Of a DNA stretch of 64,000 nucleotides, positions 42,751 to 49,145 are shown piece after piece; position 1 is the stretch's first letter; each line of letters starts with the position of its first letter. The notes beneath the pieces were generated by a model. That model was given only the letters and a program-made list of their open reading frames with translations. It did not search any database and was not told the DNA's origin. This stretch comes from an uncultured Anaerolineaceae bacterium. Lineage in GTDB: Bacteria > Planctomycetota > Phycisphaerae > FEN-1346 > JAACEH01. The position numbers and the translations under genes were made by a program. The stretch is taken from NCBI GenBank assembly GCA_964500225.1, contig CAZCOA010000001.1, positions 15,978-79,977 on the forward strand. The letters run 5' to 3'.

Positions 42751-43719
42751 GTGACCGACGAGAGCCCCTCCTTCGACTTCTTCGATTCAGCATTCCTGCG
42801 TAAGCTGGAAACCATGGCTGTCTTCAGCCGGCGGGCCTTTGCCGGGCGGCTTCGCGGCGAGCAGCGGAGCAACAAACACGGCTCCAGCGTCGAGTTCGCC
42901 GATTTCCGCCCTTACAGCCAAGGCGACGACTTCCGCCGCATCGACTGGAATGCCTACGCCCGATTCGAGGACCTTTTCGTCAAGCTCTTCATCGAGGAGG
43001 AGGACCTATTTGTTTACCTGCTGCTGGACCGGTCGGCCAGCATGGCCTTCGGCGAGCCGACGACGAAGTTCGACCTGGCCCGACGCCTGACCGCCGCCGT
43101 GGCGTACATCGCCCTGAGCCACTTGGACCGCGTCACGGTGCAGTCCCTGAGCTGCGAAGGCCCGTCGGCGCCCGGTCCGCTCTCGGTGTCCGTCGAGGCG
43201 TCCCCCGCGCCGCCGAACGGTCGCCCGCCGGAGAATCATCTGGCGTTCGTCCGCGGCAAGGGGTCTATCTTCACGGTGTTCGACTTCCTCCGCCGCCTGC
43301 GTCCCGAGGGCAGCACCGACCTGGGCCGCAGCGTGCGCGAATTCCTCATGAACCATCACCACAAGGGCGTGGCCCTGCTCATCAGCGACTTCCTCAGTCC
43401 CGGCGGGTACCAGGACGCCCTCAAGCAACTCGGCTTCGCCGGTTTTCAGCCGATGGTCATCCAGGTACTCGCTCGCGAAGAATTGGAGCCCGACCTGTCC
43501 GGCGATTTCCGCCTGATCGACAGCGAAACCGGGAACCCCGTGGACATCTCCACCACGCGACGCATGATCGACGGCTACCGCGACCGCGTGCGGCGATTCA
43601 CCGGCGACCTCGAACAGTTCTGCAAGAAGAACAACATCGCCCACCTGATGACCACCAGCGACACGGCGGCCGAGGATCTCGTCCTGCACGCCCTCCGCCG
43701 CGCGGGCATCGTCAAATAG
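42751..43719 (+). CDS. DUF58 domain protein (MoxR-system-associated)
   Basis: VEFADFRPYSQGDDFRRIDWNAYAR hallmark motif. Confidence 0.8.
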   Translation: MTDESPSFDFFDSAFLRKLETMAVFSRRAFAGRLRGEQRSNKHGSSVEFADFRPYSQGDDFRRIDWNAYARFEDLFVKLFIEEEDLFVYLLLDRSASMAFGEPTTKFDLARRLTAAVAYIALSHLDRVTVQSLSCEGPSAPGPLSVSVEASPAPPNGRPPENHLAFVRGKGSIFTVFDFLRRLRPEGSTDLGRSVREFLMNHHHKGVALLISDFLSPGGYQDALKQLGFAGFQPMVIQVLAREELEPDLSGDFRLIDSETGNPVDISTTRRMIDGYRDRVRRFTGDLEQFCKKNNIAHLMTTSDTAAEDLVLHALRRAGIVK

Positions 43720-43952
43720 GCCTTCCCCGCCGGTCGCCGGCCGCCACGCACAGACGGCACAAACGGAACATCCCGCACCCCAGGCCGCAGACCTTCCCCA
43801 GATTGCCAACGATATTTCCGTCCCCGGCGGCGAATGTTTGACCCAAGGCCCCGTGTGGGCTATATATGTGCGGCGGAAGCGATCACCGCAGCCGGTGGGG
43901 ACCGGCCGCGCGTCGCCAGGTCGCTTCGCCTGCCACGATTCAGGTTGTGCAC

Positions 43953-45728
43953 ATGCACCGAACGACTCGGACAACCGCGGCTTTGGTCGCCCTGTGCCTG
44001 CTGGCATTTCTGGCGGGCTTGGGCTGTCGTAGCGTTTATGCCGGAGGCTCCTACGCGCGGCTGGGAACGGTGCGGCTCGATCACCTTCCGAGCGACATTC
44101 GCCAACGGATCGAATCGCTGGTCAAAGATCATCCGGACGCCGCCGCACGCGGCCAGGCCCTCTGGACTCAAGGCCGCCAGTTCGAGACCGAGGCCAACCT
44201 GATCGCCGCCCTGGCCACTTACCAGGAGATTTCCCGTACCGGAGCCCTGCCCCCGGCGGACCTCGACGAACGCATCCGCTGGTGCCGCGCCAGGATTGCC
44301 GTCGATACTCGCTGGGCCGACGACAAACTGCTTGCCTCGGCACGCGCGATGCCCCTCGAACAGGGCCTCGGCCTCTATCGGGAGGTCGTACGGAGCGTGG
44401 CCGACAACTACGTGGACCCGGTCGGCTACGCCCGGCTGCTGGCTAATGGAATGACCAATCTCCGCGCGGCCATGGCCAGCGATGCTTTCCGCACCCGTCA
44501 CGGCATGGACGACAACGCGGCGGCACGCGCTGAGTTCCTGGCCGGCCTCGACATCATCGCCCGCAAGATCGGCGAGGAGAAGACGCTGACGAGTTTCACC
44601 GCCCGCTACTACGTCCGCCTGGTCTGCGAAGAAAATGAACGGACGGTGCGCCTGCCCTGCGGCGTGGTGATCTCCGAGATGCTCTTCGGCGCCACCGAGC
44701 ACCTGGACGACTACACCGCCTTCCTCACCCACGACATGTACGACGAGGTCAAGTCGGACATCAACGGGCAATTCGTCGGTCTGGGCGTCGAAGTGCGACA
44801 GGACGAAGGACGCATCCGCATCGTCAGCGTCTTCGAGGACGGGCCGGCCTGCCGCGCGGGCCTGCTCCCCAACGATATTCTCTTGGCCGTCGGTGCCGAG
44901 AGCATGAGCGGCAAGAGCCTGAGCGAGGCAGCTCGCCTGATCCGCGGTCCGCGCGGATCACAGGTCACGATCACCGTGGACCGCGGCGGGCAGCAGTTGA
45001 CGCTCACAGCCACACGCGACACGGTTCACGTGCCGAGCGTTCGCTGCGCCGCCCGCCTCGGCGAGGGCGGCCGCATCGGCTACGTTCGCCTGGCGGCCTT
45101 CCAGAGGAGTTCCGCGCTGGAGATGTCGCAGGCCCTGGACCGCCTCGCCCATGAAGGACCGCTCGACGCCCTCGTGCTCGACCTGCGCGGCAACCCCGGC
45201 GGCTTGCTCGATGCCGCCGTGGACGTGTGCAACCTGCTTCTGGACAAAGGCGTCGTGCTGACGACGCGCGGCCGCGGCTTTGGCCAGACCAGCACCTTCC
45301 GCGTGGGCCACTGGCGCTACAGCTATCACGACCAGCCGCTGGCCGTACTGGTGGACGGCCGATCGGCCAGTGCCAGCGAGATCGTAGCCGGCGCACTGCG
45401 CGACCATGGCCGTGCAACCCTTGTCGGCAGCCGCACTTACGGCAAGGGCATCGTCCAGAGCGTCCTGCCCGTCGAAGGCGGACGGAGCGCCCTTTATATC
45501 ACCACGGCTCGCTTCTACGGCCCTCGCGACGTGTCGTTCCACGGCATTGGCATTCCGCCCGACGTGACGGTCGAGGCCGATGACGCAACTGCCAGCCCCC
45601 TCGCCGACGCGCCCGACCCGGCCGCCGACGCCGCGCTGCGCCGCGCGATGGACCTCCTCGCCGAGGCGGTGCGTCCCGCCGCCGTTGCCCGCGCCGACAC
45701 CGCCGCCGCGACGCTGACGATTCCCTGA
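43953..45728 (+). CDS. S41 C-terminal processing peptidase with PDZ domain
   Basis: Internal ATG 43953 with signal peptide. PDZ domain, then DLRGNPGG and Ser/Lys dyad (SASASE...TYGKG). Confidence 0.85.
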   Translation: MHRTTRTTAALVALCLLAFLAGLGCRSVYAGGSYARLGTVRLDHLPSDIRQRIESLVKDHPDAAARGQALWTQGRQFETEANLIAALATYQEISRTGALPPADLDERIRWCRARIAVDTRWADDKLLASARAMPLEQGLGLYREVVRSVADNYVDPVGYARLLANGMTNLRAAMASDAFRTRHGMDDNAAARAEFLAGLDIIARKIGEEKTLTSFTARYYVRLVCEENERTVRLPCGVVISEMLFGATEHLDDYTAFLTHDMYDEVKSDINGQFVGLGVEVRQDEGRIRIVSVFEDGPACRAGLLPNDILLAVGAESMSGKSLSEAARLIRGPRGSQVTITVDRGGQQLTLTATRDTVHVPSVRCAARLGEGGRIGYVRLAAFQRSSALEMSQALDRLAHEGPLDALVLDLRGNPGGLLDAAVDVCNLLLDKGVVLTTRGRGFGQTSTFRVGHWRYSYHDQPLAVLVDGRSASASEIVAGALRDHGRATLVGSRTYGKGIVQSVLPVEGGRSALYITTARFYGPRDVSFHGIGIPPDVTVEADDATASPLADAPDPAADAALRRAMDLLAEAVRPAAVARADTAAATLTIP

Positions 45729-46269
45729 TTTCTCATCCGTCATCCTTGTTCGTCGCACGCAATCCGACGGCGCACCGCGCGCCGACAATACCCCTGACGA
45801 CGCACCCGCGCACCGCGCTCGCCGTCGTCACGCCGACGGCACCCCGCCTGTCGTCGCGCGACGACGACGCGCAACGCGCGGAGGAAAGACACATGTAAAA
45901 AAAGTGACGATTGCGTCCATCCCTAGCGCGATTTCTGTTGCACTCGGTCGCCGATGAAGCGCATTATGAACAGCCATGAGAGGCAATTCGTCTTAAGTTA
46001 AGTTCGCTGATGCTCCGATGAGTTGTAGCAGGATGAGTTTGCAGCACTGATAAGGTCGAATGTCGGAGACGCTCGAAGAGTCGGTCATATCCTTATCAAC
46101 TACTGTTGTGCTTGAGCTGTTCACGTTGATGCTTGTCGCGGGAAATTCACGGTCGCCGAGGGGCGGCACTCGTGAGAAACGATAAGGCAACATGAAGTCG
46201 GCGTCGGCTTCAACAGGACTTGGAGAGATTCGAGCTGTCTTTCATGACCCTTTGAAAGGAGCGAACACG

Positions 46270-46392
46270 ATGGCGAAGGCGAAGAAGAAAGTCGCGAAGA
46301 AGAAGGTGGCCAAGAAGGTCGCGAAGAAGAAAGTCGCCAAGAAGGTGGCCAAGAAGAAAGTCGCCAAGAAGAAATGCTGCGGCAAGAAGTAG
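46270..46392 (+). CDS. Lys/Ala-rich histone H1-like (Hc1/BpH-like) small basic protein ending in CCGKK
   Basis: aaaggag RBS 7 nt upstream. 40 aa: MAKAKKKVAKKKVAKKVAKKKVAKKVAKKKVAKKKCCGKK. An intrinsic terminator follows. Confidence 0.6.
   Translation: MAKAKKKVAKKKVAKKVAKKKVAKKVAKKKVAKKKCCGKK
46291..46371 (+). repeat. 3 x 27-nt tandem codon repeat (VAKKKVAKK units) inside the small Lys-rich ORF
   Basis: Direct reading of the nucleotide sequence. Confidence 0.85.
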
Positions 46393-46447
46393 CTCCGTCG
46401 GCCGAGGCCGTTCCGAAGTGGAGGCTCGGCACATCGTGCCTATTGCG

Positions 46448-46481
46448 GGACCGGAAGACGCCTTCCGGTCCCGTTTTTCTT
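46448..46481 (+). terminator. Rho-independent terminator after the Lys-rich ORF
   Basis: 10-bp stem ggaccggaag/cttccggtcc, loop acgc, followed by tcccgTTTTTcTT. Confidence 0.65.
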
Positions 46482-46489
46482 CGTCGGCC

Positions 46490-46518
46490 TTGCCCGTCGG
46501 CTCTCCAGCCCGTATAAT
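46490..46518 (+). promoter_or_regulatory. sigma70-like promoter (TTGCCC-N17-TATAAT) driving a leaderless parA
   Basis: The -10 TATAAT ends 7 nt before the ATG at 46526. No SD motif. Confidence 0.5.
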
Positions 46519-46525
46519 CCGGCCC

Positions 46526-47623
46526 ATGCGAGTGATTGCCATCGTCAATCAGAAGGGCGGCGTCGGCAAAACGACCACCACCTGCAACCTGGGAGCGGCC
46601 CTGGCCGCCCTGGGCCGCCGCATCCTCATGATCGATCTGGACGCCCAGGCTCACCTGACGTTTCACCTCGGCGTGGACAACTCGACCCTCGAACGGTCCA
46701 TGTACGAGGTCATGACCGGCCGGGCCTCGATCGCCGAGACCCTGGTGCACCGCGCCGAGCGGCTCGACCTGGTGCCCAGCCACATCGACCTGGCCGGCGC
46801 CGAGATCGAACTTGTGTCGCAACTGGCCCGCGAACGGATCCTGGCCGACGCCCTAGCCCCCTGCCGCGACCGCTACGACTATGTGCTGATCGACTGCCCG
46901 CCGTCGCTCGGCCTGATGACGCTCAACGCCTTGGTGGCCGCCGATGACATCCTCATCACCCTTCAGCCGCACGTCCTCGCCCTGCAAGGCATCAGTAAGC
47001 TCATCGAAACGGCCGGCCTGGTGCACAGCCGCCTGAATCCGCGGCTGCGGATCATGGGGGTGGTCTTCTGCATGTTCGACGGACGCACAACCCTGTCGAA
47101 CGAGGTGCTGGCCGACGTGAGCGGCTACTTCTCGCGTGCCTGCGACGGGCAGACGCTGATGGCCAGCACGCGCGTGTACGAGACCCGCATCCGTCGCAAC
47201 ATCAAGCTGGCCGAGGCCCCCGGCTTCGGCCAGACGATCCTCGAATACGACGCCTCCAGCCACGGCGCCGCCGACTACCGGCTCCTGGCCGACGAGTTTC
47301 TCGCTCACGAAGCGGGCAAGGTCGCAGCGCCCGCCGCAGCGGCGGTGCCGCCGGCCGACACGGTCGCACCGTCCATGGCCACCCCGCCCATCGAGTCGCC
47401 GTCGAGCAATACGCCGCCTGCGGCCGAAGCGACGGCGGCCCCGCACGAAGCGGCTCCTCCGGCAGAGACGCCGCGGCCAACCGACGCCTCGGTCGTCGCC
47501 GACCCGTCGGTCGTTGCCGTTCAGTCGGTGTCCATGGCCGCCGATGCGACAGCGGCGCAGAACAGCCCGGCGACGGCCGGCACCACGAGCGAGGACGCCA
47601 GCCATGGCCCGATGGCTGTCTAG
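46526..47623 (+). CDS. ParA/MinD-family ATPase (orphan, no parB nearby) with ~110-aa Ala/Pro-rich C-terminal tail
   Basis: Deviant Walker A KGGVGKTT. ParA fold to about residue 260, then a low-complexity tail. Confidence 0.85.
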   Translation: MRVIAIVNQKGGVGKTTTTCNLGAALAALGRRILMIDLDAQAHLTFHLGVDNSTLERSMYEVMTGRASIAETLVHRAERLDLVPSHIDLAGAEIELVSQLARERILADALAPCRDRYDYVLIDCPPSLGLMTLNALVAADDILITLQPHVLALQGISKLIETAGLVHSRLNPRLRIMGVVFCMFDGRTTLSNEVLADVSGYFSRACDGQTLMASTRVYETRIRRNIKLAEAPGFGQTILEYDASSHGAADYRLLADEFLAHEAGKVAAPAAAAVPPADTVAPSMATPPIESPSSNTPPAAEATAAPHEAAPPAETPRPTDASVVADPSVVAVQSVSMAADATAAQNSPATAGTTSEDASHGPMAV

Positions 47624-48053
47624 TCGCCCCCTGGCCTGGGGCTGCGCGATTGCGTACCTCGTCCTGCTGTTTGTCCTCAGCCACCATAGCCTTCGCGGCA
47701 TCCGCATCCCAACGTTCCGATTCAGCGACAAAGCCGCCCACGCCGTCGCATACGCCGGCCTGAGTGCCGCACTGTACTGGGCATTCCGGAGTCTGAACCG
47801 CGGATGGCTGTTTCGCTGGGCGACGCTGTCGGCGTTCGTGGCGGCAAGTCTCTACGGTATCAGCGACGAGTGGCACCAGAGCTGGGGACCCGGCCACCGC
47901 TCGCCCGACGTCTGGGACTGGGTGGCCGACACGGTCGGGGCGGCGGCTATGATGACCGGCGTGTTTCTTCACAACCGCAGACGCCGTGTTCAGGCACCGA
48001 ACCAGCCCGCCACCGCCTTCGACAACCCCGACTTCGAGAACACGCACTCGTAG
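47604..48053 (+). CDS. VanZ-like family membrane protein
   Basis: Start overlaps the parA 3' end by 20 nt. Four TM helices with the VanZ motif (ISDEWHQ). Confidence 0.7.
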   Translation: MARWLSSRPLAWGCAIAYLVLLFVLSHHSLRGIRIPTFRFSDKAAHAVAYAGLSAALYWAFRSLNRGWLFRWATLSAFVAASLYGISDEWHQSWGPGHRSPDVWDWVADTVGAAAMMTGVFLHNRRRRVQAPNQPATAFDNPDFENTHS

Positions 48054-48853
48054 GCCGTCCAGGCCAGAAACGCCGTGAACAGGGCCCGCACGAAGCGGTC
48101 GGGAAGCTGGTGCGTCAGGTGGCCGCCGAGGTACGCCCCGACCAGAGCCGACGGAACCAGCAGCGCCGCCAGATGGATCGGGGCCCAGTGCGTCATGCCG
48201 TCGGGCAAGGACACCGTGACGTTTTTCACCACAGCGGCGATGGAACAGAAGATGACCATGGTCGCCGCGCTGTTGGCGATGGCGTTCTTCTGGGGCATAT
48301 CGAGAAAGATCTGCTGGCCGGGCACGCTGTATGTGCCGCCGCCGATGCCGAGCATGCCGGCCAGGAATCCCGTGGGGACAGCCACGGCCGAGACGCGCGG
48401 CAGGGTCACGCGCAGCGACGCCAGATCGTCGGCCGCATCGAGGGCCACCGGGTGCCCGCGCCCGAAGAGCTTGCGGACGTTGTCATAGACCATAAAGCAG
48501 ACCACCGCCCCGAAGACGCCCCAGAGCACCTTGTCCAGTCCGTGGCGACCGAGCGTGTTGGCGGCCAGCACGCCGCCTATGGCCGCCAGGATCCCCAGCG
48601 GAAGCACCTTCTTGACGACGCTTACGATGACGCGGCGATTGCGATAATGGCCGACCGCGCCGCCCAGACCGACGAAGACATTGCAGATCAGCGCTGCCGC
48701 CGCGAACACGTTGTACGATGCGTCCGGAAACACCCGACCGAGAATCGGCAGGAAAATCACCGAGCCGCCAATCCCCAGCATGCCGCCCCCGATGCCGGCG
48801 ACAAGACCGGCGATGATCAGCACAGCGACTCGACCGGCGGTGAACTCGAGCAT
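47990..48853 (-). CDS. TauE/SafE (DUF81) sulfite-exporter-family permease
   Basis: Two internal repeats, each with a GxGGG motif. aggag RBS. Confidence 0.8.
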   Translation of the reverse strand: MLEFTAGRVAVLIIAGLVAGIGGGMLGIGGSVIFLPILGRVFPDASYNVFAAAALICNVFVGLGGAVGHYRNRRVIVSVVKKVLPLGILAAIGGVLAANTLGRHGLDKVLWGVFGAVVCFMVYDNVRKLFGRGHPVALDAADDLASLRVTLPRVSAVAVPTGFLAGMLGIGGGTYSVPGQQIFLDMPQKNAIANSAATMVIFCSIAAVVKNVTVSLPDGMTHWAPIHLAALLVPSALVGAYLGGHLTHQLPDRFVRALFTAFLAWTAYECVFSKSGLSKAVAGWFGA

Positions 48854-48902
48854 ACTCCTGCCATCCCTGCCGACACCTGAGCAACGAGGTCCGGCTCGGC
48901 AC

Positions 48903-49142
48903 TCACTTATGATAGCCCAATCCCTTGAAAACCTCGAACAACTCGCCCAGGGTGATGAATTTGCGGCCGTGAGCGATCTTGTAGGCGTCCACCGCCTGGG
49001 CAAATTCCCGCGCCTCCGGCGACAGGTCGGCGTATGAATCGGCAAATTGCCGTCGCTCGGCCCCGCCCGAACGGCCCACCGCCTTGCGGCGGTCGAAAAA
49101 CTGTTTGTCCCAATCGACCATGACCGACTCCTCCGACTGCAT
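48903..49142 (-). CDS. Hypothetical small protein (79 aa)
   Basis: Start 3 nt after the ugd stop codon (49142 vs 49146), suggesting translational coupling. No recognisable family. Confidence 0.45.
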   Translation of the reverse strand: MQSEESVMVDWDKQFFDRRKAVGRSGGAERRQFADSYADLSPEAREFAQAVDAYKIAHGRKFITLGELFEVFKGLGYHK

Positions 49143-49145
49143 GCC

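What the first reader, a model, noticed from the sequence alone, without database searches (positions are those of the whole stretch)
46270..46392. 40-aa Lys/Ala-repeat histone-H1-like peptide with CCGKK tail as an independent transcription unit
- **Signals:** the ORF has a strong RBS (aaaggag) and its own hairpin/U-tract terminator.
- **Protein:** it encodes MAKAKKKVAKKKVAKKVAKKKVAKKVAKKKVAKKKCCGKK, built from 3 x 27-nt tandem repeats.
- **Homology (from memory):** the repeat chemistry is that of bacterial H1-like nucleoid proteins (Chlamydia Hc1/Hc2, Bordetella BpH), which fits a PVC-superphylum genome.
- **Unusual tail:** the Cys-Cys tail is not typical of such proteins and could allow metal binding, disulfide multimerisation or acylation.
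- **Annotation risk:** short repetitive ORFs like this are often missed by gene finders.
Basis: partly seen in the sequence, partly recalled or inferred. Interest (0 to 1): 0.6.

Follow-up and report, generated by a model that had tools for sequence, protein, structure and literature searches.

The report
Conserved tiny polylysine gene, structured leader
The 40-codon lysine-rich reading frame is a real gene conserved in relatives of this Planctomycetota (Phycisphaerae) bacterium; it encodes a nearly pure polycationic mini-protein that most likely coats DNA or another polyanion, but it is not a demonstrable relative of the chlamydial or Bordetella histone-like proteins, and its Cys-Cys tail is a local peculiarity.

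Summary
In detail: ORF 46270-46392, SD GAAAGGAG, 27-nt x 3.2 repeat and a strong hairpin/U-tract terminator are all present. No other frame in the window approaches its lysine density.

Synteny through the downstream parA recovered 12 further orthologs. They are 18-96 aa, 55-74 % K+R and contain no Asp or Glu. All share the same SD-ATG-GCN-AAR start and a GC-rich hairpin after the stop. In the leader-bearing loci a conserved promoter then precedes a leaderless-looking parA.

So this is a genuine, separately terminated micro-gene that evolves by in-frame repeat gain and loss.

It is 97-99 % identical to the nearest relative, against ~90 % for flanking genes. It has no Rfam match and moderate covariation support, and a hairpin buries the SD and start codon.

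Similarity to Hc2 or BpH is compositional only (E > 0.3, far below cut-offs), and there is no flanking domain.

A cysteine tail occurs only in the window's clade. There it is hypervariable (CCGKK, TCCKK, PGCKK, VGCKK) but always keeps at least one Cys.

Best reading: a domain-less, H1-tail-like polycation under translational control. Function is inferred, not shown.

The parts
45936..46269 (+). Conserved low-GC non-coding leader (probable 5' UTR) of the polylysine gene
   Evidence: - It is 97-99 % identical to L002, against ~90 % for flanking CDS and 68 % just upstream.
- It aligns in 11 of 13 orthologous loci, and nhmmer finds it nowhere else in 136 loci plus the window.
- No ORF is conserved on either strand, and there is no Rfam hit.
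- For the RNAalifold structure, 90.6 % of cells are paired against 80 % when shuffled. 14 pairs change on both sides, matched by 2 of 500 shuffles.
- The single-sequence MFE z-score is only -0.28.
46193..46212 (+). 8-bp hairpin with tetraloop inside the leader (UGAAGUCG-GCGU-CGGCUUCA)
   Evidence: It is present in all leader-bearing loci. In L126 and L127 a different stem of the same geometry replaces it (AGGCCGAG-CGUC-CUCGGCCU). MAFFT puts those two out of register, so this is read directly from the sequences.
46234..46274 (+). Hairpin enclosing the Shine-Dalgarno sequence and start codon (GCUGUC 46234-46239 pairs with GAUGGC 46269-46274; in this clade UCUUUCA also pairs with the SD)
   Evidence: - The outer helix is 100 % paired in 7 distinct sequences. 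The two varying positions, C->U and A->G, both keep pairing.
- Local folds are -10 to -17 kcal/mol in all 10 leaders.
- The 3' arm is fixed by the ATG-GCN codons, so changes on both sides are impossible.
46254..46261 (+). Shine-Dalgarno sequence GAAAGGAG, 8 nt before the ATG
   Evidence: GAAAGGAG is invariant in 11 loci. L130 and L004 carry a GGAGG-type SD instead.
46270..46392 (+). Polylysine micro-gene, 40 codons plus TAG
   Evidence: Twelve further syntenic orthologs of 18-96 aa all start MAK[AKR]K, and none has any D or E among their ~665 residues (705 including the window's 40).
46285..46371 (+). In-frame tandem repeat (27 nt x 3.2; sub-units VAKKK and VAKK)
   Evidence: TRF result. The length differences from L002 (+30 nt) and L046 (+15 nt) fall inside this array and keep the frame.
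46375..46383 (+). Hypervariable tail codons TGC TGC GGC (Cys-Cys-Gly) before the final Lys-Lys
   Evidence: The same three codons read ACC TGC TGC in L002, CCG GGC TGC in L046 and GTC GGC TGC in L124. The L002 and L046 leaders are 99.7 % identical. No Cys occurs in the other nine orthologs.
46445..46484 (+). Intrinsic terminator: 13-bp GC-rich hairpin plus U-tract
   Evidence: Every ortholog has a hairpin of -23 to -36 kcal/mol after the stop. Most share the core GGG(A/G)CCGG...CCGG(U/C)CCC with changed inner stems.
46490..46518 (+). Promoter of the neighbouring parA (TTGCCC-17-TATAAT); context, not part of the gene
   Evidence: It matches 10 of 12 consensus positions. The CTTGCCC...TATAAT box is conserved in L002, L046, L047, L048, L050 and L052 and ends 6-8 nt before the parA ATG, which suggests a leaderless mRNA.
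46526..47623 (+). Orphan ParA/MinD-type ATPase, the persistently linked neighbour
   Evidence: Pfam AAA_31 at 1e-61. No NCBIfam family is above its cut-off. No ParB is adjacent, and the gene overlaps a vanZ-like ORF.

Best explanation
This is a genuine small gene with its own terminator. Its product is a domain-less polycation of (V/A)AKK(K) units: 55 % Lys here, 55-74 % Lys+Arg in orthologs, and never an acidic residue.

**Shown**
- The gene is conserved in relatives.
- Its translation signals are invariant.
- Its length changes by whole in-frame repeat units.
- Only its charge and composition are conserved.
- A hairpin follows it in every relative. In the loci that carry the conserved leader, a separate parA promoter follows the hairpin.
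- A ~330-nt leader precedes it and is under stronger constraint than the neighbouring coding sequence. The last 40 nt of that leader fold over the Shine-Dalgarno sequence and the AUG.

**Inferred**
- The peptide works electrostatically, as the C-terminal tail of linker histone H1 or the pentamer repeats of chlamydial Hc2 do. It would bind and neutralise a polyanion, most likely chromosomal DNA, and so compact or bridge the nucleoid.
- Such a peptide would be harmful in excess, so its translation is gated by the leader. The trigger could be temperature, a ligand, a protein or the peptide itself, and it is unknown.
- The cysteine tail is an add-on specific to this clade. It could link two peptides through a disulfide or a metal and so double their valency.
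For: - **Conservation by synteny.** Lys-rich ORFs lie directly upstream of parA orthologs with 42-88 % identity.
- **Translation signals.** Eleven loci have GAAAGGAG, 6-8 nt, then ATG GCN AAR. The two most distant have a GGAGG-type SD.
- **Selection on charge.** There is no D or E in any ortholog, although GAR is one transition away from AAR. K->R changes are fixed, including 7 CGN codons.
- **In-frame length change.** L002 is +30 nt and L046 is +15 nt, and one of the few substitutions is synonymous (GTG/GTA).
- **Codon usage.** Lys codons are 88 % AAG, against 87 % in the adjacent ParA genes.
- **Terminator.** Present and strong, and hairpins are conserved across orthologs.
- **Separate parA promoter.**
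- **Leader.** Its constraint and structure are.
- **Wider occurrence.** Monocistronic (VAKKK)n mini-genes occur in unrelated low-GC contigs, one with an 11/12 sigma-70 promoter.
- **Literature.** Lys-rich repeat tracts bind DNA, or DNA and polyphosphate, in Hc2 (PMC2848022), AlgP and PhaF (PMC9239181), Streptomyces TopA (PMC5714199) and mycobacterial Ku (PMC3553676). No histone homolog had been found in planctomycetes, and only two divergent HU proteins had been reported in Gemmata, as of PMC3440768.
Against: - There are no expression or binding data of any kind.
- Profile matches to Hc2 and H1-like families are insignificant.
- HMMER cannot establish homology for such low-complexity sequence, so orthology rests on synteny alone.
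- AAG-rich DNA is open in all three frames, so ORF length by itself proves nothing.
- The gene is absent from some close relatives: L125 with ParA 72 % identical, L001 with 63 %, and L131. It is therefore dispensable.
- An 18-aa ortholog (L130) is short for a chromatin protein.
- The leader shows no thermodynamic signal (z = -0.28), and no promoter was found upstream of it.
Confidence: 0.55

Rival explanations
1. The peptide is an accessory of the adjacent orphan ParA-type ATPase. Its basic N-terminus (MAKKK...) could stimulate the ATPase, or it could tether a cargo or the nucleoid to it, as the basic N-terminal peptides of ParB, MinE and McdB do for their ATPases (established knowledge of ParA/MinD systems).
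For: - The polylysine gene stays immediately upstream of parA even where the left neighbour changes. In L130 the left neighbour is trigger factor on the opposite strand, and L004 belongs to Sedimentisphaerales.
- No ParB is adjacent, and this ParA fits no specific NCBIfam family.
Against: - The two genes are separated by a conserved terminator and a conserved parA promoter, so they are not co-transcribed.
- Known partners lie downstream of the ATPase in the same operon. Here that place is taken by an overlapping vanZ-like gene.
- ParA orthologs in L125, L001 and L131 lack the peptide.
- (VAKKK)n genes occur elsewhere with no visible parA within short contigs: 225 nt of downstream sequence in L132 and 138 nt in L135.
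Confidence: 0.12
2. The polycation targets a polyanion other than DNA. It could bind RNA or ribosomes as a chaperone, a translational repressor or a condensate former, or it could bind polyphosphate granules as AlgP does.
For: - Hc2 binds RNA more strongly than Hc1 does, and it represses translation (PMC2848022).
- AlgP's Lys-rich tail associates with polyP granules and spaces them (PMC9239181).
- A long structured leader would suit autoregulation by an RNA-binding product.
Against: - Nothing in the sequence discriminates between polyanions.
- There is no match to the tiny basic ribosomal proteins or to any NCBIfam model.
- A length range of 18-96 aa argues against a fixed structural site on the ribosome.
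Confidence: 0.15
3. The frame is not translated. The AAG-rich repeat is an RNA or DNA element, for example an A-R-N repeat that would bind the distal face of Hfq, or a slippage-prone simple repeat. On this view the ORF is incidental.
For: - AAG repeats are free of stops in all frames.
- Homology searches find nothing significant.
- K->R changes through AGG keep an A-R-N pattern.
- The leader shows that the locus is constrained at the nucleotide level anyway.
Against: - An SD at the right spacing, followed by ATG-GCN-AAR, is kept in all 13 loci.
- The stop codon always sits at the end of the Lys tract.
- All repeat units are multiples of 3 nt.
- Seven CGN Arg codons and the many GTN and GCN codons break an A-R-N pattern but keep the peptide's character.
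- The tail changes keep a Cys codon in the reading frame.
Confidence: 0.07
4. It is a lysine-sensing leader peptide. Ribosome stalling on 22 Lys codons would control the downstream terminator and so control read-through into parA.
For: A run of one codon type followed by a hairpin terminator is the classic layout of an attenuator.
Against: - parA is not a lysine gene.
- parA has its own conserved promoter, which ends 7 nt before its ATG, and it has no SD. A read-through transcript would therefore translate it poorly.
- The terminator lies 52 nt beyond the stop codon.
- ORF lengths of up to 96 codons are unlike known leader peptides.
- No antiterminator alternative was looked for, so that point is untested.
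Confidence: 0.03

Closest known systems
Chlamydial Hc2 (HctB; Pfam PF07382, NCBIfam NF038052)
   Same: - Both are built of consecutive Lys-rich pentamers with Ala, Val and Thr as the other residues.
- Both lack acidic residues in the repeat region.
- Both vary in length between strains by in-frame gain and loss of repeat units (PMC2848022).
- Both belong to the PVC superphylum.
   Different: - Hc2 is 165-237 aa, with a conserved 24-aa N-terminus and a conserved C-terminal part. Its pentamers carry two basic residues.
- The peptide here is 18-96 aa with no flanks and three Lys per pentamer.
- The profile score is 8.7 bits, E = 2.3, against a cut-off of 40.
- The resemblance is one of kind, not demonstrable descent.
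BpH1 / Burkholderiales histone H1-like protein (NCBIfam NF038053)
   Same: Both have Lys/Ala-rich pentamer repeats that cause size variation (PMC2848022).
   Different: That family is ~180-200 aa. The score here is 8.5-9.8 bits against a cut-off of 80. It belongs to a different phylum.
AlgP and PhaF KPAA-repeat tails of Pseudomonas
   Same: Both are disordered Lys-rich tandem repeats that bind DNA or polyphosphate and vary in repeat number (PMC9239181).
   Different: The Pseudomonas tails are Pro-containing KPAA units attached to a folded N-terminal domain, in proteins of ~350 aa. The peptide here has no proline periodicity and no domain.
C-terminal tail of eukaryotic linker histone H1, and protamines
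   Same: The composition (K, A, V), the very high charge density and the expected disorder match the H1 tail. A Cys added to a polycation recalls the cross-linking cysteines of mammalian protamine P1 (my own knowledge).
   Different: There is no winged-helix globular domain. The peptide is Lys-based rather than Arg-based. Cys is present only in one clade.
Lysine-repeat tails of actinobacterial DNA proteins (TopA, HupS, Ku, HBHA)
   Same: These are low-complexity Lys/Ala repeats that raise DNA affinity (PMC5714199, PMC3553676, PMC10665949).
   Different: They are always appendages of a folded DNA-binding or enzymatic domain. Here the repeat is the entire protein.
SD-sequestering 5' leaders (RNA thermometers, riboswitch expression platforms) and sRNA control of chlamydial hctA by IhtA
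   Same: The start region is buried in a hairpin with a U-rich anti-SD, and a condensing protein is kept under post-transcriptional control. The IhtA case is from my own knowledge.
   Different: There is no match to any Rfam family. The ~330-nt length is far above that of known thermometers. The trigger is unknown.

Membership tests
Hc2 / HctB (PF07382, NF038052) | Significant match to the family profile | tested here: not met
   PF07382 gives E = 2.3 at 8.7 bits against a cut-off of 40. NF038052 appears only for the L002 ortholog, at E = 8.2.
Hc2 / HctB (PF07382, NF038052) | Consecutive Lys-rich pentamer repeats without acidic residues | tested here: met
   VAKKK and VAKK units are present. 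TRF reports periods 15 and 27, and there are no D or E residues.
Hc2 / HctB (PF07382, NF038052) | Conserved non-repeat N-terminal and C-terminal segments; size 165-237 aa | tested here: not met
   The whole protein is repeat, at 18-96 aa. The family description is from PMC2848022.
Hc2 / HctB (PF07382, NF038052) | Binds and condenses DNA | not testable with these tools
   This needs a peptide or an expression experiment.
Hc1 / HctA | Conserved N-terminal dimerisation domain followed by a Lys-rich tail | tested here: not met
   Pfam returns no Hc1 hit at E <= 10, and there is no non-repeat N-terminus.
Burkholderiales H1-like protein / BpH1 (NF038053) | Profile match above cut-off | tested here: not met
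   E = 0.86-2.1 at 8.5-9.8 bits against a cut-off of 80.
Eukaryotic linker histone H1 | Winged-helix globular domain | tested here: not met
   There is no Pfam hit, and 40 aa of repeat leave no room for one.
Tiny basic ribosomal proteins (bS22, bL37 and similar) | Match to the NCBIfam naming model; fixed length | tested here: not met
   No such hit, and length ranges from 18 to 96 aa.
Amino-acid attenuator leader peptide | Run of codons for the regulating amino acid, followed by a terminator | tested here: met
   22 Lys codons are followed by a terminator at 46445-46484.
Amino-acid attenuator leader peptide | Downstream operon for that amino acid which depends on read-through | tested here: not met
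   The downstream gene is parA, which has its own conserved promoter and leaderless layout.
Intrinsic (Rho-independent) terminator | GC-rich hairpin immediately followed by a U-tract | tested here: met
   A 13-bp stem with 9 GC pairs is followed by TTTTCTTCGT. The fold z-score is -3.4, and a hairpin follows the stop in every ortholog.
Any described RNA family (Rfam 15) for the leader | Covariance-model match | tested here: not met
   Nothing is credible at E <= 10 in the window's leader, nor at E <= 1 in six orthologous loci.

The most novel reading that the evidence does not exclude
The locus could be a previously undescribed regulatory module made of two parts. The first is a new structured leader RNA that senses a signal and releases translation. 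The second is a free-standing polylysine 'bacterial protamine'.

In the window's clade the hypervariable cysteine tail would cross-link that peptide, through redox or a metal. The peptide would then reshape the nucleoid surface on which the adjacent orphan, leaderless ParA ATPase operates. This would couple chromatin state to ParA-driven positioning in Phycisphaerae.
Probability: 0.12. Interest if true: 0.8.

Novelty: new variant of a known kind. Interest (0 to 1): 0.5.

Why it matters
- **Planctomycete nucleoids.** Many Planctomycetota have strikingly condensed nucleoids. No histone homolog had been detected in planctomycete genomes, and in Gemmata only two divergent HU proteins had been reported (PMC3440768). 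A family of polylysine micro-proteins is invisible to BLAST and HMMER and is usually missed or mis-started by gene callers. It is therefore a concrete, testable candidate for a compaction factor, at least in Phycisphaerae.
- **Method.** Composition-only micro-genes can be validated by synteny when homology searches fail.
- **The leader.** It is more conserved than the surrounding genes, so it is a candidate new cis-regulatory RNA in its own right.
- **Caveat.** If the peptide proves to be just another dispensable H1-like polycation, the result is a modest addition to a known class.

Tried and rejected
- **Sequence homology.** phmmer-type searches with the 40-aa and a 69-aa ortholog returned only the window's own gene call and a few generic (VAKKK)n proteins. 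The exhaustive search of 1.84 billion representatives returned two hits. Low complexity defeats these tools.
- **Protein family libraries.** Pfam, NCBIfam and PADLOC gave nothing significant.
- **66-aa JGI start (ATG 46192).** Rejected. The extension is not open or not ATG-initiated in L124, L048, L052 and L126, and that ATG lies inside a conserved RNA hairpin.
- **Coding potential of the leader.** No ORF is conserved on either strand.
- **Known RNA families.** None match.
- **Thermodynamic signal for the leader.** None, z = -0.28.
- **AAG over AAA bias as evidence of selection for translatability.** Rejected. A first comparison with six long ORFs suggested a bias, but the adjacent ParA genes show the same 87 % AAG.
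- **Column-wise covariation test of the 46193-46212 hairpin.** MAFFT puts L126 and L127 two columns out of register, so I did not run the test and describe the stems directly.
- **Replication origin or centromere reading of the low-GC region.** There is no turn in cumulative GC skew. The repeated GATAAGG motif is explained by an intra-leader helix in the single-sequence fold, and only the first copy is invariant across orthologs.
- **Structure prediction of the peptide.** Not run, because it would be uninformative for a polylysine repeat.

Full report
**1. The observation**

The region reads exactly as described.
- GAAAGGAG lies at 46254-46261 and the ATG at 46270.
- Forty codons give MAKAKKKVAKKKVAKKVAKKKVAKKVAKKKVAKKKCCGKK, ending with TAG at 46390-46392.
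- Tandem Repeats Finder reports a 27-nt unit, 3.2 copies, 91 % matches at 46285-46371. It also reports periods 15 and 42 for the same array.
- The only terminator-like site in 45700-46700 is a 13-bp, 9-GC stem at 46445-46474 followed by TTTTCTTCGT.
- That 3' region folds at -51.4 kcal/mol, z = -3.4.

The lysine density is far outside the background.
- The densest 20-aa window has 12 Lys. The maximum is 6 in any other stop-to-stop segment of the 66 % G+C window.
- The neighbouring ParA has 5 Lys in 365 residues.

**2. Is it a gene?**

Homology searches are useless for this composition.
- The 40-mer finds only its own locus (called by JGI as a 66-aa 'hypothetical protein') and one 42-aa fragment.
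- The exhaustive search of 1.84 billion representatives gives two hits.
- The exact 40-aa product is in no collection.

I therefore used synteny. The downstream gene (46526-47623) is a ParA/MinD-type ATPase. I fetched its relatives from genomes and metagenomes and through exact-protein look-ups.

A Lys-rich ORF lies directly upstream of parA in 12 further loci.

| Locus | ParA identity | Peptide length | C-terminal tail / note |
|---|---|---|---|
| L002 / L045 | 88 % | 50 aa | ...KKTCCKK |
| L046 | 88 % | 45 aa | ...KKPGCKK |
| L124 | 72 % | 69 aa | ...KKVGCKK |
| L052 | 72 % | 37 aa | no Cys |
| L048 | 65 % | 26 aa | no Cys |
| L047 | 63 % | 59 aa | no Cys |
| L126 / L127 | 63-69 % | 91 aa (L126) | no Cys; the L127 ORF is interrupted by an assembly gap |
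| L050 | 62 % | 96 aa | no Cys |
| L128 | 60 % | 72 aa | no Cys |
| L130 | 58 % | 18 aa | no Cys |
| L004 | 42 % | 62 aa | Sedimentisphaerales MAG; no Cys |

All begin MAK[AKR]K. Eleven have GAAAGGAG 6-8 nt before ATG-GCN-AAR, and the other two have a GGAGG-type SD.

Across the 11 fully read orthologs and the window's own peptide (705 residues) there is not one Asp or Glu. This is despite GAR being a single transition from AAR. Lys-to-Arg changes are fixed, including seven CGN codons.

Length differences among near-identical relatives are whole in-frame repeat units: +30 nt in L002 and +15 nt in L046. One of the rare substitutions is synonymous.

Lys-codon usage (88 % AAG) equals that of the adjacent ParA genes (87 %). 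This is consistent with coding but does not discriminate.

I conclude that the frame is translated and that selection acts on charge and composition rather than on sequence.

The gene is not universal. L125 (ParA 72 %), L001 (63 %) and L131 lack it.

**3. Transcription unit**

Downstream, every ortholog has a hairpin of -23 to -36 kcal/mol after the stop. Most share the core GGG(A/G)CCGG...CCGG(U/C)CCC, with different inner stems and loops.

Beyond it lies a conserved CTTGCCC-N17-TATAAT box, which matches 10 of 12 consensus positions in the window. It ends 6-8 nt before the parA ATG, and parA has no SD. parA therefore seems to be transcribed separately and as a leaderless mRNA.

On the 5' side no sigma-70-like promoter was found, so the start site is unknown. 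Two observations argue for an own promoter.
- In L130 the left neighbour is on the opposite strand.
- An unrelated (VAKKK)n mini-gene in L135 has an 11/12 consensus promoter ~95 nt upstream.

**4.

The ~330 nt before the ATG (45936-46269) have ~50 % G+C in a 66 % genome.
- They are 97-99 % identical to L002. Flanking coding sequence is ~90 % identical and the stretch just upstream is 68 %.
- The element aligns in 11 of the 13 loci.
- A nucleotide profile finds it nowhere else in 136 loci plus the window.
- It has no conserved ORF on either strand.
- It matches no Rfam family, in the window or in six orthologous loci.

The evidence for structure is mixed.
- The single-sequence fold is no better than shuffles (z = -0.28).
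- The RNAalifold consensus has 90.6 % paired cells, against 80 % in shuffles and 32-48 % when partners are slid.
- It has 14 pairs with changes on both sides, matched by 2 of 500 shuffles.
- The structure was derived from the same alignment, which inflates these figures.

Two local elements are clearer.
- **Hairpin at 46193-46212.** This is an 8-bp stem with a tetraloop. In L126 and L127 a different stem of the same geometry replaces it.
- **Helix over the start site.** GCYRUC at 46234-46239 pairs with GAUGGC at 46269-46274 and encloses the SD and AUG. It is 100 % paired in seven distinct sequences. The only variable positions change C->U and A->G, which keep pairing.

Local folds of this start region are -10 to -17 kcal/mol in all ten leaders. 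A U-rich strand pairs with the SD or its flank. Translation is therefore probably gated, by an unknown signal.

**5. The cysteine tail**

Cys occurs only in the window's clade and in L124. The three codons before the final Lys-Lys read as follows.

| Locus | Codons | Residues |
|---|---|---|
| window | TGC TGC GGC | C C G |
| L002 | ACC TGC TGC | T C C |
| L046 | CCG GGC TGC | P G C |
| L124 | GTC GGC TGC | V G C |

The L002 and L046 leaders are 99.7 % identical, yet their tails differ at 5 of 9 nt.

The tail is thus a local hotspot that always keeps at least one Cys near the C-terminus. It is not a property of the family, since nine other orthologs have none. A role in dimerisation by disulfide or metal is possible but purely inferred.

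**6. What it most likely does**

The product has no room for a fold, a net charge of +22 in 40 residues, and only its composition is conserved. The best-supported mechanism is electrostatic binding to a polyanion.

By analogy that polyanion is most likely chromosomal DNA. The analogues are:
- the Lys-rich pentamer repeats of Hc2, which also vary in repeat number (PMC2848022);
- the KPAA tails of AlgP and PhaF (PMC9239181);
- the lysine repeats of TopA and Ku (PMC5714199, PMC3553676).

Tight translational control fits a product that would be harmful in excess.

Rivals:
- It may be an accessory of the adjacent orphan ParA. Linkage persists when the left neighbour changes. However, the two genes are separately transcribed, and the operon partner of parA is an overlapping vanZ-like gene.
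- It may bind RNA, ribosomes or polyphosphate instead of DNA.
- It may be an untranslated AAG-repeat element. The invariant start signals and the codon patterns argue against this.
- It may be a lysine attenuator. This is contradicted by parA's own promoter and by ORFs of up to 96 codons.

**7. Comparison with known families**

It works like an H1 tail or like Hc2, but membership fails.
- The HC2 profile scores 8.7 bits against a cut-off of 40.
- The Burkholderiales H1-like model scores 8.5-9.8 bits against a cut-off of 80.
- There is no Hc1 hit and no winged-helix hit.
- The conserved flanks and the size of those families are absent.

All characterised bacterial lysine-repeat tracts that I could find in the library are tails on folded domains or parts of much longer proteins. 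A text search for 'VAKKK' found no relevant paper.

Similar free-standing (VAKKK)n genes exist in unrelated low-GC contigs (L132, L135). One has its own promoter and both have their own terminator, and gene callers again over-extended them. The kind is therefore wider than this lineage.

**8. Verdict**

This is a real, conserved and under-annotated micro-gene for a domain-less polycation, carrying a conserved and undescribed leader. It is a new variant of the known class of H1-like lysine-repeat proteins. Function and regulation remain to be tested.

- Interest: 0.5.
- Novel reading: a leader-gated 'bacterial protamine' that acts together with the orphan ParA. I put this at about 0.12.

Noticed in passing
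window 53430-53633 (+): A cobalamin riboswitch (RF00174) scores 112 bits with a full-length match. It is the only Rfam hit above gathering score in the window.
   Followed up: no
window 46490-46528; also L002, L046, L047, L048, L050, L052: parA appears to be a leaderless mRNA. A conserved TTGCCC-17-TATAAT promoter ends only 6-8 nt before the ATG, and there is no Shine-Dalgarno sequence.
   Followed up: partly
window 42751-50468; L124-L128: A gene block is strongly conserved: DUF58, S41/PDZ peptidase, polylysine gene, parA, vanZ-like (overlapping parA), TauE, a 79-aa ORF without a family, and UDP-glucose dehydrogenase. No parB is nearby.
   Followed up: partly
window 47242-47541 (ParA residues ~240-340): The Ala/Pro/Thr-rich C-terminal extension of ParA diverges much faster than its ATPase domain. 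It is 77-83 % identical to L002 at the nucleotide level, against 96-98 % for the 5' part of parA (46542-46841).
   Followed up: no
window 46192-46269; proteins P0001, P0123, P0125, P0126: Gene callers systematically extend these polylysine ORFs to upstream in-frame start codons. This gives 66-118-aa 'proteins' whose real start is the internal MAKKK.
   Followed up: yes
L001 1388-1700: In this relative (ParA 63 % identical) the space upstream of parA holds tandem copies of a Pro/Leu/Ala-rich unit (…PLLPSPLPLKPPALPGDAVV…) instead of a polylysine gene.
   Followed up: no
L132 386-580 and L135 616-768: (VAKKK)n mini-genes of 64 and 50 aa occur in unrelated low-GC metagenome contigs, each followed by its own terminator hairpin; L135 also has a near-consensus promoter. 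The one in L135 follows a D-Ala-D-Ala-ligase-like gene end (my reading of the translated fragment, not checked against a family library).
   Followed up: partly
protein P0128: A 414-aa protein contains seven stretches 87 % identical to the polylysine repeat. It was the only hit other than self in the exhaustive search.
   Followed up: no
window 45905-45935 and orthologous positions: A conserved A-run, ~30 nt of spacer and a T-run (AAAAAAA...TTTTTTGTTG) lie immediately before the leader. This could be an UP-element with an unusual promoter, or a bidirectional terminator. The transcription start is unresolved.
   Followed up: partly
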